DNA from: Catajapyx aquilonaris
Lineage: Eukaryota
Length of the DNA stretch: 36,633 nt
Direction of reading: 5' to 3'
Assembly (NCBI GenBank): GCA_000934665.2
Contig: JYFJ02003907.1
Coordinates: forward strand, 1-36,633
The notes beneath the pieces are model-generated. The model was not told the DNA's origin. It searched no databases and was given only the letters and a program-made list of their open reading frames with translations. Each line of letters opens with the position of its first letter. Positions within the stretch are counted from its first letter, which is position 1. Positions 2,299 through 36,633 of the stretch are shown here, piece by piece. The position numbers were made by a program, and so were the translations under genes.

Positions 2299-2585
2299 AG
2301 TGGCGCTGCGGGAACGTCAGGTTCAATCCCAGCCCGGGGTTCACTCCTTCATCCCGTGCAGAGTTGGGTCGTCTCTGGCTTCGTTTCGGGTGGAATCTCC
2401 TCAGACTAATCCACCCGGGGGAGTTCACAAAATATACCGTTTGAGAATTGCACTTGCACCTTGCACATCCCCTCCCAGTCACCCTGCCCGTGGGCCCGGG
2501 TGCTTTGTCAAAAAGGTTCCATCAAGACAAAATAAAGGTTCCCTCCCTGCGGTACGATGCAGGGAGGTAAATAGCTAAAAAAAAG
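2299..2585 (+). mobile_element. tRNA-derived SINE (family B), nested copy
   Basis: B box GGTTCAATCC; core GCAGAGTTGG..TCTCTGGCTTCGTTTCGGGTGG shared with the 24567 copy; 3' hairpin plus A-tail. Confidence 0.85.
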
Positions 2586-2840: not shown

Positions 2841-3030
2841 TGTAAGCTAATTGTTGAGGCAGGAATATGCGTGTTGTGGGAGTTTTCGGAAGCTGAAACA
2901 TGCGGCGTTAGATTCCTTGGAAAAAGTAACCCCCGATATGCTAATTTAAGGCGGTGTAGGGGCCTTCCCCTGGATTTCTATAAGGGACAAACATCCAAAC
3001 TTGCTTATTTATAGATATAAGAAGATAAGA

Positions 3031-3056
3031 TTATTATATTTATTATCATTATATTA

Positions 3057-3148
<92 letters not shown>
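3031..3148. repeat. (ATT)n microsatellite
   Basis: Direct read; pure from about 3060. A companion tract lies at 1936-1969. Confidence 0.97.
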
Positions 3149-3150
<2 letters not shown>

Positions 3151-4432: not shown

Positions 4433-4820
4433 GTATGGTATAACTGCATGTGAAGGAATCTATTCAGTGAGCTCGATTTTTTCATAAAGTTTTTGGTATT
4501 TACTTGCTGCCAGAGAATTGTACTGTACACTAACAAAAATTGCAGCTAAATCTCTCAACACTTGTTGGAGATATACCATGAATGACGAGAAGTGAAAGTA
4601 CTCTCCCCATGTTCACCAGGTGCCATGACTTATCAAAAGGCGAAGAAGGAGAAACTGATTCTGATTGTATAAGGAGGCACTTAGTTTTATTCTCTCTCCC
4701 TCTCTCTTCCCCCCCCCCCCNCCCCCCCCCACCCCCCTTGTCCGAAAAGGAGAATGAGTCGGAGCTATTCTTGCCTTCAATGTAAAATCTGAGCTCAAAG
4801 ACCCCAAGACATGAGCTAAC

Positions 4821-9739: not shown

Positions 9740-10250
9740 CAGTTGCGAGGCTATCAGCCGCTATCAGCATTTGAAGGCAGCCGCTACGCGTTTTCGGTTG
9801 CGTCATAATAGGATTTGCAAATGGCGTCTTGTGAATAGTCCCAGGAACGGACGTTTGGATATACTTCCTCCTATATTTTTGTAGACCTCCGTTTGGAACC
9901 CCTTTTCCTTCCACGTCTCGTTGAGTGCGCGAGCCCGACCCTTTCGATTAGGCTTGTTATTAGAGGATGGCGACTAGCGCGGAGTGCAGCGTCGGAGGGG
10001 AGGAGCAGCAGCAGTTCTGCCTGAAGTGGACCAACTTCCAGTCGAGTCTGCTGGCGTCGTTGCCGCAGCTGCTGGACGGGGACGACCTGACCGATGTCAC
10101 CCTCATCGCGAGCGGCTCCAGCCTCAAGGCGCATCGGGTCGTGCTCTCTGCCTGCAGCACCTTCTTTCGGGATCTGTTCAGGGTGAGGCGGGGCACCACC
10201 AGCCACTCCCATTTGCTCCACTCATCGTCAGGAGGGGACTTATCTGAATA
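9740..10250 (+). promoter_or_regulatory. CpG-rich promoter/first exon of the BTB-ZF gene
   Basis: Abrupt CpG enrichment around the start codon; TGCGTCA (9799-9805) and AAATGGCG (9819-9826) motifs. Confidence 0.5.
9967..10182 (+). CDS. Ttk-type BTB/POZ-C2H2 zinc-finger transcription factor, exon 1
   Basis: QQFCLKWTNFQ...LTDVTL...LKAHRVVLSACSTFF is the Ttk/Broad/Bab-type BTB N-half. Donor AGG|GTGAGG. From memory it most resembles Drosophila CG32121 (unverified). Confidence 0.93.
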
Positions 10251-14244: not shown

Positions 14245-14660
14245 TTGATTGGTTAGATTGGTTAGATTAGGAAGGAGCCAAAGCAACTATGACTCTCTGG
14301 CTATTAGAAGTTATGGAAAGTCAAAGAGAAAAAAGAAGAGAGGAAAGACTGGAATCTCTGTCTGTCTCCTACCCCAAAGATCTGTCTGGCTTGGGAGGCC
14401 ATGCCAGTAGACGCCATAGTTACCCCCGGCATAGCTATTCAGTTTTACAGGCATGTGAAGTGCTGGGTCAATGTTGGTCTGGGTCATATTGTGCTTTTTG
14501 CCCCTGGGTGGTTAGTCCAGTGCAAATCCCACCTGAAATGAAGCCAGAGATGATCTAACTCTGCATGAGATGAATGGGGGAAAGACCCTGCTTTAGGATT
14601 GAACTCAGGACCCTTCTATCCGTGGATGCATTTGTTACCACAGACCCACTTCGCTTCTTC
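14245..14660 (-). mobile_element. Diverged SINE family B copy with an RTE-like 3' half
   Basis: Minus strand reads GAGTTCAATCC B box, core GCAGAGTTAGATCATCTCTGGCTTCATTTCAGGTGG, then AGCTATGCCGG...GGCCTCCCAAGCCAGACAGATC. Confidence 0.75.
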
Positions 14661-19600: not shown

Positions 19601-20657
19601 GTAAGACCAAAGGTTGTGCTTCTGCAATTGGTTATTGCGTTATTTGTGGAGCTACTGTAAATTTAAGGATTTTACTATGTACCTTGTCATCTAACAATAC
19701 AAAAAGAAAAATGAAACATTGTGGAGCGCTACATCATCATCATCATCATCAACAACAACATTCTGCAATTTCCTTATAAAATGGCTAGTCAGTGACAAAG
19801 ATGATAGCTAACCCCCTTTTATAGAGAAATGTCATGATCATGATGGTGAAGTGGCTCTATAGATGACTAATTCATTTTTCGTTTCTAAGATTTACAGTAA
19901 AATATGAATTTTTCAAAGCACAGCTGTTGAGAATGTGTTATAATTGATTTTAGTTATTTTAGTATTAGTTTATTTGCATTGAAAGTTCGGTCTAGTTGTA
20001 GTGTGGATGCACAAGTTTCTGATATAAAATGGCATAGCATTTGCATGTAACCTATGCACATCTTCCTGTATACTATAAATCAGCTCTAGATTATGTATTA
20101 TACCTAATACAAATGTGTATATTACATAAAAAGTAGTTACACTACAATGTAGTTCTCAGAGCACCACAAATTCAAGTTTTGTTTGTTGGTCTTCCCCTAA
20201 AAAGCCCAAGGGGCTTATCCAGGGTATCCATAAGAAATAAGTTTTGTTTGTTGGAATTTTCTGGAATGTAATTTAATTTTTTGGTTTCGTATTTTGAATC
20301 CTCATATGCAGAGGGCCAACTGTACCAGTGCATCTCATTCTTTGGGTGATGTTGCTTTGGGAAAATTATTAAATGCATTATGCTTGTAATGAGAAGTGCT
20401 AATTTCCATTGTGAGTTGTTGTACTGCCAACAGATTTCTGCAGTGACTTCCACCATCTCCAGGCAATTTTGCTCTTCGTTGTGGGTGTACTGTCTGGCAT
20501 TAGCTGTGGGGACGCAAGTGTGTGTTTCAACTATAACTGTAGGGACACTGACCCAATTGTGGGGACATTGCTGGTCCCCACAATTGATTTTACTGGTTGG
20601 TATTGCTTTAGGCATGTCCCCACAATTTGGGTTTATAAAATTCCATTTTTCTCAGCC

Positions 20658-20710
20658 TAGGTTAGTTACAGTAGGATAGGTTACGTTAGGGTAGGTTAGG
20701 TTAGGTTAGG
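20658..20710 (+). repeat. Interstitial degenerate (TTAGG)n arthropod telomere-type repeat
   Basis: TAGGTTAG...GTTAGGGTAGGTTAGGTTAGGTTAGG; resumes as GTTAGGATAAACTAGG at 21131-21146. Confidence 0.85.
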
Positions 20711-21130
20711 TCAGCATAGTCGATTGAGAGTTTCAGTGGACCTTATCGTATGTCACGAAACGAAACTCCGTGGGCCCCGAAGAAGCATACCGAAGTGGTG
20801 ATTGGACCGGTGGTTCCCCCTGCTATCGTCTACCCAGTCTGTACGTTTTGTCTCCCGATACGGGTGGGGTGATAGCGGCACACGATACCCATGCCGATGA
20901 CCGAAACCATCGCACTGCTACCACCTTAACCTAGATGAGGCGGTGTGCACGTTGCCGCATGTGGGTGCAGGACTAACAGTGCAAGGGTTGGTAGCGTACA
21001 AGGGTTGGTAGCGTACTAGCTCACCTGACACCTGAAACACTCCTACCGTGTCAAACGATACGCTTTCAGGCGGGGCGGAGCTGCGATGCGTTCGTCTTTC
21101 GTTACGTGTCGGAAAACGGATCCCCTTTAT
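20711..21130 (-). mobile_element. CpG-rich structured insert inside the TTAGG array (putative non-LTR retroelement 3' UTR or derivative)
   Basis: Sharp composition change, TTAGG units on both sides, and several hairpins that need G.U pairs on the minus strand. Confidence 0.55.
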
Positions 21131-21475
21131 GTTAGGATAAACTAGGTTTGCAAGGGTGTGTTATCCATGTCCCCACAGCTAATGCCGTACAAGACTGGAT
21201 GCGTGTGTGGGTGTGTGCATGAGGGGGGGAGGGGGAGAGAGTATTGTATTGTCCTAAATGGTCAGAAATTAGGTGTACTTGGAATGGTATGCCAGGTGAT
21301 AAGGAAGCTGCAGTGTATTCATGAATATACAGTATTATACCAACTGCATGCTTCCTTTCTCACAACCAAGAATAGAACGGTCCATAATTCTAGTGGGAGA
21401 TTTGCTGGTGGTGTAGTAATGAGCATTCTTTTTGTACATGCTAGAAACTTACATTGTAATGTTGCTCACTTTTAG

Positions 21476-23461: not shown

Positions 23462-23751
23462 TCCCCCCCCCCCNCCCCCCCCCCCCCCACTCATTCATTC
23501 ACACCGTGGCTTGTCTCTAATTGAAGGGGTACCCAGTGGTAGCAAGGAAATGCAAGAATGACATGCTACTGTAGTCCTATATGAAAAAATGAAAATGCAA
23601 AGAAAGCATTCCTTTGTGTCACAGCACTTGCATTTTAGCAATAGAATTTTTTTCGCTGCTCTTGCAGTACATGCATCACATACAGTCAGAGTGAGTGTTG
23701 TCATGGCCATTTTAAAACCAGCTCATGTCAATTTCACCTATTCTTTTTCAG

Positions 23752-24566: not shown

Positions 24567-25061
<495 letters not shown>

Positions 25062-27416: not shown

Positions 27417-27646
27417 GTAAGTAGAAGTTGTAGCACATATGTGACTGTTTTTTCCCTGTTCTTCCACAATAGTTTGCACTTAGTTATGATGAGATGGTTC
27501 AAAATAATCAGACTGTGGCATAAAGTTCTTATGAAGGAAGACAGTATAGAGTACGTGCCCATCCCCAGTGTAGTTTGCCCGCCCCCAAAAAATGTAATGG
27601 TGGGGTAATAAACAAAATGTGATAAAAAATCACCGTTAAGATTATA

Positions 27647-28011
27647 CAGGGTGATCAAACTTTTTTGTCTTTTTAGTTATTGACAAATTCAGTCTAAGCT
27701 GCTTATATTGTAGCCCGTTCCCTGGCAACCCCGTCCGGTGGGCCAATTCAAAAATCAGCCCATGGAGAGCGCTTCCATTGTTGCCACTGTTTACAAATCG
27801 AGTGAGTGACGCGGACGACCCAGCGACGGGTCTCTTCTGCCTGCTCACTCACTCACTCGATTTGTAAACAGTGGCAACAATGGAAGCGCTCTCCATGGGC
27901 TGATGTTTGAACTGGCCCGCCGGATGGCGTTGCCAGGGAACGGGCTACAATATAAGCAGCTTAGGCTGAATTTGTCAATAACTAAAACGACAAAAAAGTT
28001 TGATCACCCTG
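27647..28011. mobile_element. Palindromic Tc1/mariner-type MITE
   Basis: TA|CAGGGTGATCAAAC ... GTTTGATCACCCTG|TA; about 163-bp near-perfect arms with a loop of about 39 nt. Confidence 0.95.
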
Positions 28012-28734
28012 TATAGACTTTTGAATAGATAATCATGAAGCGTAACAATGGAGTTAGGCACACACCAAAGTTGAAGTTGATTTGACAGTTAACAACTGAA
28101 AAAAATATGATTACACCTTGAAGTGTGAATTTCTGTGGGGTATAGTAAAAATTGCAGCCACTACTTTTATACGTTACTTAGCAGGACATTAATTTTAATA
28201 ATGAACCTACGGGGCCACACAAATCCGAAGAGTGTATTAAAATCAATTACAAAAAAATCTAACACAGAATTAAAAAATATTATGGCTCGCGGACTTTTTC
28301 TGAATTTGCTACACGTTGGTGTACAACATTTAACAGCGTTATTTATAAATAAATAAAAATGTGACAACATTGTCTATTTAGACCTCAGTCCAATGTGCTA
28401 CGATTAAAAAATTTCAATTCAATTAACGTGAAATGGTTTTTAAAATTCCTGCATTAAAAATGTACAGAAAATTCGACATCTGCAAGCCGTGATAAACATT
28501 TTAAAATTCCGTGGTAGATTTTTTGTAATTAATTTTAATGCTGTCTTAGGATTCGTGGGGCACCTCAGGTTAATTTTTAAATTAATGTCCTGCTTAAGTA
28601 ACATACCAACGTAGTGGCAGCAATTTTTACCAGACCCCACAGAAATTCACTGTCCTAGGTGTAATCATATTTATTTCAGTTGTTAACTGTCAAATCAACT
28701 CTCCAATGTTACAATTAATAATTATCCATTCTTA

Positions 28735-28988
28735 CAGTGGCGTAGGCAGGAAATTTTTTCGGGGGGGGCCCATGGCTGATCGGTCCGTTTCATAATATTG
28801 TAACCTATTGTAAGACTTTTTTGACGTATCATAACAGTATTCGAGTCGGAGGGGGGAGGGGGAGGATTTCATAAACCGCGAAAATTTTCTTTACTGTTAC
28901 ATAATGTAATGCATTTATTGATTTTTCTTAACATTTCAGGGGGGCCCCGGCCCCCCCGGCCTCCCCCCCCCCCCTGCCTACGCCACTG
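28735..28988. mobile_element. MITE with CAGTGGCGTAGGCAGG TIR and 7-bp TSD (hAT/P-like)
   Basis: Perfect 16-bp TIR; ATTCTTA at 28728-28734 and 28989-28995. Confidence 0.92.
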
Positions 28989-29357
28989 ATTCTTAAGTCC
29001 AGATAATCTTATGGATATTTTGTATAACATTTTGTTTATTACCCTCGCCACTCCACTTTTTGGGGGTGGGCGGACTACACTGAGGTTGAGCAAGTATACC
29101 ATTAATATTGTTATAGTGTCCATCTTAATGCCTTTTTGAAATGTTAACTCTGTTGCACGAATCACTAAATTCAGTACTTTCCTTTGTTCCCTGCATTGTT
29201 AGGTACAAAGGATCACTAAGGAGTGATAGTGACGGTTGATCCTTGTTTCCTCTGGCAGGAACCAGTGGAAGTTAATAGCATTAGCAAACAGAAACATGCC
29301 TTTAAGATGTGAATAATATAGGCACCAACAACTTAATTAAGGCACCGTTTTTCTCAG

Positions 29358-36006: not shown

Positions 36007-36171
36007 AATTTTGGTTGTTCTTGAAGACATTTCGTTTATATTTTGAGATATTGTGTGTGATGCTAAAATGTTTATTTTATATCATGGTTTAACCCTTTGA
36101 TGGCGGAGTTTTTGAGGGATTGCATTACCCCAGGGCCTGAGTTTTTTTTTCCCCCTTTTCCGGAAATTTTG

Positions 36172-36633
36172 TGACCTCACCTATTTTCTTCAAATTCGGT
36201 GCGTAGGTAGCCCACCCCAAGGGATGAAAAACGCACCTATAGTGACCTGATCAAAATGACCCTGTGACCCAATTTTGAGGGGGGCAGAGGTCAAATCATA
36301 AAATTTTGACCTCACCAATTTTCCTCAAATTCGGTCCATTGGTATCCCACACCAAGGGATGGCAAACGCACCTATAGTTCCCTGCTCGAAATGACCCTGT
36401 GACCCATATTGGAGGGGGTCAGAGGTCAAATTTTGACCTCACCGATGTTATTCAAATTTGGTGCATAGGTAGCCCACCCAAAGGGATGAAAAACGCACCT
36501 ATAGTTACCTGATCAAAATGACCTCGTGATCCAATTTTGAGGGGGGCAGAGGTCAAATCATAAAATTCCGACCTCACCGATTTTCTTGAAATTCGGTGCA
36601 TTGATAGCCCACACCAAGGGATGACAAACGCAC
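36172..36633. repeat. Tandem repeat of about 127-135-bp units with dimeric higher order, running off the window
   Basis: Units start at 36172, 36307, 36434 and 36569 (GACCTCACC...CAAGGGATG..AAACGCAC). Confidence 0.93.

What the first reader, a model, noticed from the sequence alone, without database searches (positions are those of the whole stretch)
20711..21130. Strand-specifically structured RNA cassette inserted into an interstitial TTAGG array
Seen: a 420-bp CpG-rich block interrupts TTAGG-type repeats on both sides, in otherwise CpG-poor intron. On the minus strand it reads CCTAAC|ATAAAGGGG...ACTATGCTGA|(CCTAA)n, with no poly(A) and no tRNA head. Its hairpins pair fully only on the minus strand, via G.U: CGATGGT-TTCG-GTCATCG, ACCGCCT...AGGTGGT and CACGGAG-TTTCG-TTTCGTG. 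It also has GCTATC...GATAGC enclosing CCCG-TAT-CGGG, five TTCG motifs, and a 17-bp tandem duplication (20982-21015). Known: R1-clade SART/TRAS retrotransposons target TTAGG repeats and SART depends on structured 3' UTR elements. Inference: this is a 5'-truncated or non-autonomous telomere-repeat-targeting retroelement, or a retrocopied structured ncRNA, that uses TTAGG arrays in DNA-transposon MITEs as non-telomeric landing pads.
Basis: partly seen in the sequence, partly recalled or inferred. Interest (0 to 1): 0.72.

Follow-up and report, generated by a model that had tools for sequence, protein, structure and literature searches.

The report
Repeat copy nested in TTAGG tract
A 406-base, CpG-rich, non-coding copy of a moderately repeated element sits inside the TTAGG-like tract of a small DNA transposon in a gene intron; it is probably an ordinary nested mobile-element insertion, and the claimed RNA structure is no better than chance.

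Summary
The block is real. It is CpG-rich (34 CpG, o/e 1.10, against 0.44 for the window). It sits beside a degenerate TTAGG tract inside a MITE-like element, in an intron of a DOCK-family gene.

Contigs from four runs of one sample show three things:
- The block is repeated at about 2-25 times single-copy depth, and other copies are 82-95% alike.
- Eight joints skip the block, and 7 of 8 land at 21126-21129. Host copies without the block therefore exist, which resets the insert to about 20720-21125.
- The joints leave no target duplication longer than 1 base.

The strand-specific structure claim fails:
- Whole-block fold z is +0.39 on the minus strand and +0.06 on the plus strand.
- No 120-nt window scores below -1.5.
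- Minus-strand hairpin count equals chance: 7 against 5.9.

No Rfam family, tRNA, ORF or Pfam domain was found.

My verdict is a nested copy of an unclassified, non-coding interspersed repeat. A poly(A)-less retroposon primed from the TTAGG strand is the likeliest mechanism, at about 0.4, but it is not shown. The main rival is an internal segment of a longer transposon that most MITE copies have lost. Interest is low.

The parts
20491..20660 (.). Left arm of the MITE-like host element, with the terminal inverted repeat at 20491-20513
   Evidence: Inverted repeat I1: 23 nt, 91% complementary to 21169-21191. Depth is 478-1544 against about 22-37 in the unique flanks. CpG o/e is 0.12.
20661..20719 (+). 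Degenerate TTAGG-like tract of the host. Three perfect TTAGG units lie at 20696-20710. The last 9 bases (TCAGCATAG) are probably a decayed part of the tract.
   Evidence: TRF gives 20672-20711, period 5, 8.0 copies. Depth reaches 175,000-203,000 in bin 20679-20709. Joints leaving at 20718/20719 have the longest support.
20720..21125 (-). Nested copy of a moderately repeated, non-coding, CpG-rich interspersed repeat (406 bases). The sense strand is inferred, not shown. The left border is uncertain within 20704-20720.
   Evidence: Joints that skip it, depth 52-783 against flanks of 22-37, and other contigs at 82-95% identity. CpG o/e is 1.10. There is no ORF, Pfam domain, Rfam family or tRNA.
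20982..21016 (.). 17-base tandem duplication inside the insert
   Evidence: TRF gives period 17, 2.1 copies, 100%. A 1079-nt contig of another copy carries 17 extra bases over 20960-21080 (records 7, 15, 23, 30).
20881..21015 (.). Weak imperfect palindrome inside the insert. It can pair equally on either strand.
   Evidence: nhmmer of the insert against the window aligns insert positions 162-271 to the reverse strand of 20904-21015, E 5.1e-05.
21126..21191 (.). Right arm of the MITE-like host, with the terminal inverted repeat at 21169-21191. Repeat depth continues to about 21205.
   Evidence: I1. Depth is 640-2290 in 21144-21205 and falls to 22-37 from 21237. CpG o/e is 0.34.

Best explanation
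The block (about 20720-21125) is one copy of an unclassified, non-coding, CpG-rich interspersed repeat. It was inserted into the degenerate TTAGG-like tract of an older MITE-like DNA transposon, in an intron of a DOCK-family gene.

Shown: it is repeated elsewhere in the same genome; host copies without it exist; it left no target duplication longer than 1 base; and it has no poly(A), no terminal inverted repeats, no coding capacity and no known RNA family.

Inferred mechanism: it is a short non-autonomous retroposon whose sense strand is the window's minus strand. A nick or break in the TTAGG strand gave a 3' end (...GCATAG-3'). That end primed reverse transcription of the element's RNA from its 3' end (target-primed reverse transcription by an enzyme supplied in trans). 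This places the element's 3' end against (CCTAA)n, the orientation known for TRAS-type elements. Its high CpG content marks it as a later arrival than the CpG-depleted sequence around it. The RNA need not be specially structured, and nothing here says it is.
For: -: unique flanks have depth 22-37, and the 12 bins of 20741-21112 have 52-783.
- at least six different non-window contigs (308, 200, 130, 159, 301 and 1079 nt) match parts of the block at 82-95% identity.
- eight joints skip 406-457 bases. Of these, 5 of 8 land at 21126 and 7 of 8 within 21126-21129. 'Both' is 0-1, so any target duplication is at most 1 base.
- the 301-nt contig (X4, record 31) stops matching at 21126 with 192 further bases unlike the window. 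The 308-nt contig starts matching at 20726. The unit therefore has defined ends in other contexts.
- CpG o/e is 1.10 in the block, against 0.12 and 0.34 in the host arms.
-, table 3: several places where the window has T before G read C in the other copies (20796, 20811, 20821, 20849). The family is thus richer in CpG than this copy, which has begun to decay.
- no terminal inverted repeats at the block's ends; no ORF or Pfam domain.
- Orientation and need for a TTAGG tract fit what is reported for telomere-repeat-specific elements. TRAS1 nicks the TTAGG strand, SART1 needs at least three TTAGG units, and poly(A)-less donors can start reverse transcription at internal sites (passages of PMC7265360).
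Against: - There is no poly(A) or simple-repeat tail at the proposed 3' end.
- There is no target duplication.
- There is no pol III head: no tRNA, and no 5S, 7SL or snRNA match.
- No reverse transcriptase was seen anywhere, and no genome was available to look for one.
- Depth does not rise towards the proposed 3' end. It is lowest in 20803-20864 and high at both ends.
- The junction is 9 bases beyond the last perfect TTAGG and not at the TT/AGG site reported for TRAS1.
- Only this one insertion site was seen in full, so target preference rests on one case chosen after the fact.
- All four runs come from one sample, which may be the source of the window.
Confidence: 0.4

Rival explanations
1. 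The block is an internal segment of a longer DNA transposon from which the MITE family derives. On this reading the window holds a less deleted family member, and the contigs that 'skip' the block are deletion derivatives, not empty sites.
For: - MITE families commonly arise by internal deletion of longer elements (established knowledge).
- Block depth (2-25 times) is lower than arm depth (about 15-60 times), as expected if only some family members keep it.
- Loose ends at 20683 (4-7 contigs per run, consensus agreement 0.68-0.70) show other TTAGG-like tracts. These are followed by letters that resemble the block's left end, as if the tract-block junction recurs.
- The 1079-nt contig that shares 20960-21080 and then runs on for 938 bases could be the longer parent.
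Against: - CpG o/e is 1.10 in the block against 0.12 and 0.34 in the arms. That is hard to reconcile with one shared history, unless the arms were always CpG-poor.
- The 301-nt contig stops matching exactly at 21126 and continues for 192 bases unlike the MITE right arm, although many arm copies pass the 80% threshold.
- A single fixed right border, with left borders that differ only inside the repeat tract, fits one event and does not fit many independent deletions.
Confidence: 0.25
2. A fragment of an unrelated repeat (DNA or cDNA) was captured during repair of a double-strand break in the fragile TTAGG-like tract, with no element-encoded targeting.
For: - There is no target duplication, no poly(A) and no terminal signature of any transposon class.
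- Interstitial telomere-like tracts are described as breakage-prone in the reviews listed. I saw the search listing only; the rest is recalled.
Against: Other copies end their likeness at or near the same two borders: 21126 in record 31 and 20726 in record 2. A random captured fragment should not share both ends with other copies.
Confidence: 0.12
3. A retrocopy of a structured non-coding RNA, such as a small nuclear, telomerase-type or other folded RNA, read from the minus strand.
Against: - No Rfam family reached gathering score over the whole window. At E up to 10 only two chance-level hits appeared.
- Fold energies equal those of shuffles on both strands.
- The minus-strand hairpin count equals chance, and the plus strand has more.
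- The family is multi-copy with 5-18% divergence.
- Most other copies carry C at 20912 (+ strand). That breaks the closing pair of the best hairpin, unless an unlisted partner change exists (table 3).
Confidence: 0.05

Closest known systems
TRAS/SART telomeric-repeat-specific non-LTR retrotransposons (R1 clade; Bombyx TRAS1, SART1)
   Same: The block lies in a TTAGG/CCTAA tract, in the TRAS-like orientation if the minus strand is sense. Three perfect TTAGG units lie next to the site. A donor RNA can be mobilised in trans through its 3' UTR (passages of PMC7265360).
   Different: - There is no poly(A); genomic SART1 copies average about 20 A.
- The junction is not at the TT/AGG nick site but 9 bases into a decayed part of the tract.
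- No APE or RT ORF was seen.
- It is a 406-base unit with defined ends, where a 5'-truncation series would be expected.
- The site is interstitial, inside a MITE, not at a telomere.
Non-autonomous retroposons (SINEs, and internally deleted derivatives of site-specific LINEs such as the R2/R1 'SIDE' elements; the latter name is recalled)
   Same: It is short, non-coding and moderately repeated, with defined ends. A longer contig shares only its inner part (the 1079-nt record), as a partner element would.
   Different: There is no pol III head, no A-rich or simple-repeat tail, and no target duplication.
Endonuclease-deficient Penelope-like elements (Athena, Coprina)
   Same: These elements attach through reverse-complement telomeric repeats at their 3' end to G-rich telomeric DNA (Introduction passage of PMC8557442). 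The orientation relative to the G strand is the same here.
   Different: - No hammerhead ribozyme motif was found in 20500-21300 at E up to 10.
- The CCTAA tract belongs to the host, because it is present in copies without the block. It is not the element's own tail.
- The site is interstitial.
Internal segments or filler DNA of MITE/DNA-transposon families
   Same: The block lies between two arms with terminal inverted repeats, and other family members lack it.
   Different: CpG content is nine and three times that of the two arms. At least one other copy continues into sequence unlike the MITE arm.

Membership tests
TRAS/SART (R1-clade telomere-repeat-specific LINE) | ORFs with apurinic-type endonuclease and reverse transcriptase | not testable with these tools
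   The 406-base block has stops in all six frames and 0 Pfam families at E up to 1. No genome is held to extend longer copies. The 938 extra bases of the 1079-nt contig could not be read.
TRAS/SART (R1-clade telomere-repeat-specific LINE) | Poly(A) tail between the 3' UTR and the telomeric repeat | tested here: not met
   On the minus strand the sequence reads ...CAATCGA then CTATGCTGA then CCTAA units, with no A run.
TRAS/SART (R1-clade telomere-repeat-specific LINE) | Insertion at a fixed position inside perfect (TTAGG)n, at many independent loci | tested here: inconclusive
   Only one site was seen. The junction lies at or up to 16 bases beyond perfect units (20704-20720) and is not at TT/AGG. 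Other loci are not retrievable. A weak hint of recurrent tract-block junctions appears in the loose ends.
TRAS/SART (R1-clade telomere-repeat-specific LINE) | Fixed 3' end with variable 5' truncation | tested here: not met
   Depth does not rise towards 20720. It is lowest at 20803-20864 and high at both ends. One other copy shares the 5' border at 21126. This rests on contig depth from one sample, so the test is weak.
SINE | Pol III head derived from tRNA, 5S, 7SL or snRNA | tested here: not met
   ARAGORN found 0 genes in 20400-21400. Rfam at E up to 10 gave no such family.
SINE | A-rich or simple-repeat tail and target-site duplication | tested here: not met
   There is no tail. The joints have 'both' = 0-1.
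Endonuclease-deficient Penelope-like element | Hammerhead ribozyme motif next to the element's own reverse-complement telomeric repeats | tested here: not met
   No hammerhead family was found at E up to 10. The tract is present in host copies without the block.
Known structured RNA family (Rfam) | Covariance-model match at gathering score | tested here: not met
   There were 0 matches over the window. The best weak hit was mir-87, at 16.2 bits against a gathering score of 49, E 1.8.
MITE (for the host element) | Terminal inverted repeats, short non-coding body, many copies | tested here: met
   The TIR is 23 nt, 91% complementary. The element is about 295 bases without the block. Arm depth is 15-60 times the flanks. 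A target-site duplication was not identified.

The most novel reading that the evidence does not exclude
The block is a member of a poly(A)-less, non-autonomous retroposon family that specifically targets TTAGG tracts, so that interstitial tracts carried around the genome by MITEs serve as landing pads away from telomeres. One transposon family would then be creating the target sites of another.
Probability: 0.2. Interest if true: 0.55.

Novelty: new member of a known kind. Interest (0 to 1): 0.25.

Why it matters
As it stands, this is a nested transposable-element insertion in an intron, which is routine in repeat-rich animal genomes. It would gain interest only if the family proved to insert regularly into TTAGG tracts. 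It would then be a short, tail-less passenger of a telomere-repeat-specific machinery, acting at interstitial sites that MITEs disperse. That would bear on how target-specific retroelements escape telomeres. The CpG contrast is a useful relative clock for the two nested elements.

Tried and rejected
- Whole-genome search: no genome is held for this window.
- Earlier notes of the scan: nothing by place, sequence or words.
- Exact 24- and 25-base stretches of the block in metagenome contigs, and a 21-base stretch in viral contigs: 0 matches each.
- Plasmid collection by blastn: no match, so no sign of vector or bacterial origin.
- A second copy in the window: none by blastn or nhmmer, apart from a weak internal palindrome.
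- RNA evidence: no RNA holder was listed among the 5 runs found. This says nothing about expression.
- Identifying the taxon through proteins: one search returned no hit at the default lengths. The Atlas gave only 'condensin subunit 2', with no useful taxon. I did not pursue this further.
- Helitron reading: rejected. The ends are not TC...CTRR and the site is not A|T (motif recalled).
- Solo LTR reading: rejected. There are no TG...CA ends and no duplication (motif recalled).
- Telomerase-RNA retrocopy: rejected. The only telomere-like internal motif (CCTTAACCTAG on the + strand) does not template TTAGG, and the family is multi-copy and diverged.
- Covariation analysis: could not be run, because the other copies are visible only as difference tables.
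- Literature: three searches listed no paper on MITE-borne TTAGG tracts as retroelement targets. Only listings were read for these, and the library misses most subscription journals.

Full report
WHAT IS THERE

The window is eukaryotic nuclear DNA with three genes on the + strand:
- exons of a condensin subunit 2 gene;
- exons of a BTB zinc-finger gene;
- from about 19230 on, a DOCK-family gene with SH3, DOCK_N, DOCK-C2 and TPR_DOCK matches.

The finding lies in the intron between the SH3 exon and the exon that starts near 21470. No whole genome is held for the window. Everything about other copies therefore comes from one laying of public contigs.

THE OBSERVATION

- The block holds 34 CpG (o/e 1.10), against 0.44 for the window.
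- The sequence around it is CpG-poor. The two arms of the surrounding element score 0.12 and 0.34, and the intron 0.18-0.23. Only the CpG island at about 9746 is denser.
- To the left lies a degenerate TTAGG tract: 20672-20711, 8.0 units, 85% matches. Six of the window's 7 near-matches to three TTAGG units lie in 20676-20715, against 0.08 expected.
- To the right there is no array, only one GTTAGG at 21131-21136.
- The quoted hairpins, the five TTCG and the 17-base duplication are all present.
- There is no A run and no tRNA.
- The surrounding element has 23-nt terminal inverted repeats at 20491-20513 and 21169-21191, 91% complementary. It is repeated, so 'MITE-like' is fair. I did not find its target duplication.

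OTHER COPIES AND EMPTY SITES

The four runs are one sample, which may be the window's source.
- The unique flanks have depth 22-37.
- The MITE arms have 310-2290.
- The TTAGG bin has 175,000-203,000.
- The twelve bins inside the block (20741-21112) have 52-783, about 2-25 times single copy.

At least six different contigs that are not the window's own match parts of the block:

|---|---|---|
| 308 | 20726-20950 | 87% |
| 200 | 20789-20935 | 82% |
| 130 | 20798-20927 | 83% |
| 159 | 20842-20966 | 86% |
| 301 | 21018-21126 | 89% |
| 1079 | 20960-21080 | 95%, plus one extra 17-base unit |

Eight joints skip 406-457 bases. They leave the tract at 20703-20719. Five land at 21126, one at 21127, one at 21129 and one at 21169. 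Seven of the eight are seen in all four runs. So host copies without the block exist.

The block's right border is 21125|21126. The left border is blurred by the repeat. The two joints with the longest matching sides (39 and 48 letters) put it at 20719|20720. The insert is thus about 406 bases.

The overlap at the joints is 0-1 base, so there is no target duplication.

Two contigs bear on the unit's ends and context.
- The 301-nt contig stops matching exactly at 21126 and has 192 more bases unlike the MITE arm.
- The 1079-nt contig matches only 20960-21080 and has 938 more bases on the 21081 side.

Depth shows no steady rise towards either end. It is lowest at 20803-20864, where the visible other copies are also the most diverged.

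Where the window has T before G at 20796, 20811, 20821 and 20849, the other copies read C. The family is even richer in CpG than this copy.

THE STRUCTURE CLAIM

This does not hold.
- The whole block folds to -132.2 kcal/mol on the minus strand (shuffles -134.2, z +0.39) and -141.0 on the plus strand (z +0.06).
- Eight overlapping 120-nt windows give z from -1.17 to +1.88 on the minus strand and from -1.44 to +1.51 on the plus strand.
- Counting hairpins with 7 or more pairs, G.U allowed, the minus strand has 7 against 5.9 in shuffles (38% of 300 reach it). The plus strand has 13 against 7.6 (4%). If either strand stands out, it is the other one.
- TTCG is mildly enriched: 5 against 1.8, reached by 2.2% of 1000 shuffles. 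It was chosen after looking at the sequence.
- A weak internal palindrome (20881-20990 against the reverse of 20904-21015, E 5e-05) pairs on either strand.
- Rfam gives nothing at gathering scores over the whole window. At E up to 10 over 20500-21300 there are only two chance-level hits: mir-87 at 16.2 bits against a gathering score of 49, and a CRISPR repeat model. No hammerhead, tRNA, 5S, 7SL or snRNA model matched.
- All six frames have stops, and none matches Pfam at E up to 1.

WHAT IT IS

The evidence supports a nested copy of an interspersed repeat family that is separate from the host MITE and younger at this site.
- Empty host copies exist.
- The block occurs in other contexts.
- Its CpG content is nine and three times that of the arms.

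The class is not established. It lacks terminal inverted repeats, LTR-type or Helitron-type ends (those end motifs are recalled), a target duplication, a poly(A) or simple-repeat tail, and a pol III head.

I commit to a short non-autonomous retroposon read from the minus strand, inserted by target-primed reverse transcription from a 3' end in the TTAGG strand (confidence 0.4). The reasons are:
- the absence of any DNA-transposon signature;
- the defined unit ends shared with other copies;
- the longer contig that shares only the inner part;
- the orientation, which matches TRAS-type elements.

Passages of PMC7265360 report four relevant points.
- TRAS1 endonuclease nicks the TTAGG strand between T and A.
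- SART1 needs at least three TTAGG units.
- SART1 proteins can mobilise a foreign RNA carrying the SART1 3' UTR in trans.
- Donors without poly(A) often start reverse transcription at internal sites.

The same paper states that genomic SART1 copies carry about 20 A, which this block lacks. The junction here is also not at TT/AGG.

RIVALS

- Internal segment of a longer DNA transposon (0.25). The block would be a segment that most MITE copies have lost. The lower depth of the block than of the arms fits. So do loose ends (4-7 contigs per run, agreement 0.68-0.70), in which other TTAGG-like tracts are followed by letters resembling the block's left end. That hint fits the retroposon reading equally well.
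- Capture of a repeat fragment during break repair (0.12). The shared ends argue against it.
- Retrocopy of a structured RNA (0.05). The fold, Rfam and copy-number results argue against it.

COMPARISON WITH KNOWN SYSTEMS

The block works most like a passenger of a TRAS/SART-type machinery. It cannot be filed there. The poly(A) feature was tested and not met, the ORFs are not testable, and the target rule rests on one imperfect site.

It resembles endonuclease-deficient Penelope-like elements only in orientation. Those carry their own reverse-complement telomeric repeats and hammerhead motifs (Introduction passage of PMC8557442). Neither is present here: the tract belongs to the host.

Three literature searches listed no paper on MITE-borne TTAGG tracts as retroelement targets. 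I read only the listings for those, and the library lacks most subscription journals.

VERDICT

The composition, tract, motifs and duplication are real. The borders need correcting, there is no right-hand array, and there is no excess structure.

The block is a mobile add-on with empty sites. That it is a retroelement, that it targets TTAGG and that its RNA is structured are not shown.

This is an ordinary nested repeat until a genome-wide census says otherwise. Interest is 0.25. The boldest reading still open is a tail-less non-autonomous retroposon that uses MITE-dispersed TTAGG tracts as landing pads. I put its probability at 0.2 and its interest, if true, at 0.55.

Noticed in passing
window 36164-36633: Tandem repeat with a 135-base unit, 3.5 copies, about 80% matches. 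It runs to the end of the window, so the array is probably longer.
   Followed up: no
window 27552-29096: Nested inverted repeats in a DOCK intron. 28075-28281 pairs with 28495-28700 (84.6% over 208 bases), inside 27552-27645 paired with 29003-29096 (81%). This looks like a foldback or MITE-like element.
   Followed up: no
window 2320-2485, 24622-24788, 14501-14653: Three copies of a short interspersed repeat, 86% and 72-75% alike. The one at 14501-14653 is inverted.
   Followed up: no
window 24891-25059 and 3030-3149: Long simple repeats: an A-rich run followed by (AT)69 with 100% matches, and (ATT)40.
   Followed up: no
window 4721, 17906, 23474, 33330: Four single N. Two of them lie inside long C runs (4709-4737 and 23463-23488), so homopolymer lengths there are uncertain in the assembly.
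   Followed up: no
window 20679-20709: TTAGG-type 31-mers have a contig depth of about 175,000-203,000, against about 30 for unique sequence. Perfect TTAGG arrays are therefore very abundant in this genome, consistent with TTAGG being its telomeric motif (the link to telomeres is inference).
   Followed up: partly
window 20683 (loose ends, table 7): Contigs leaving the tract here continue with TTAGG-like units and then letters resembling the block's left end (agreement 0.68-0.70). Other copies of the block family may abut TTAGG tracts at the same end.
   Followed up: no
window 9744-10250: This is the densest CpG block of the window (35 CpG in 406 bases). It overlaps the first BTB-domain exon and is probably the promoter island of the BTB zinc-finger gene.
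   Followed up: no
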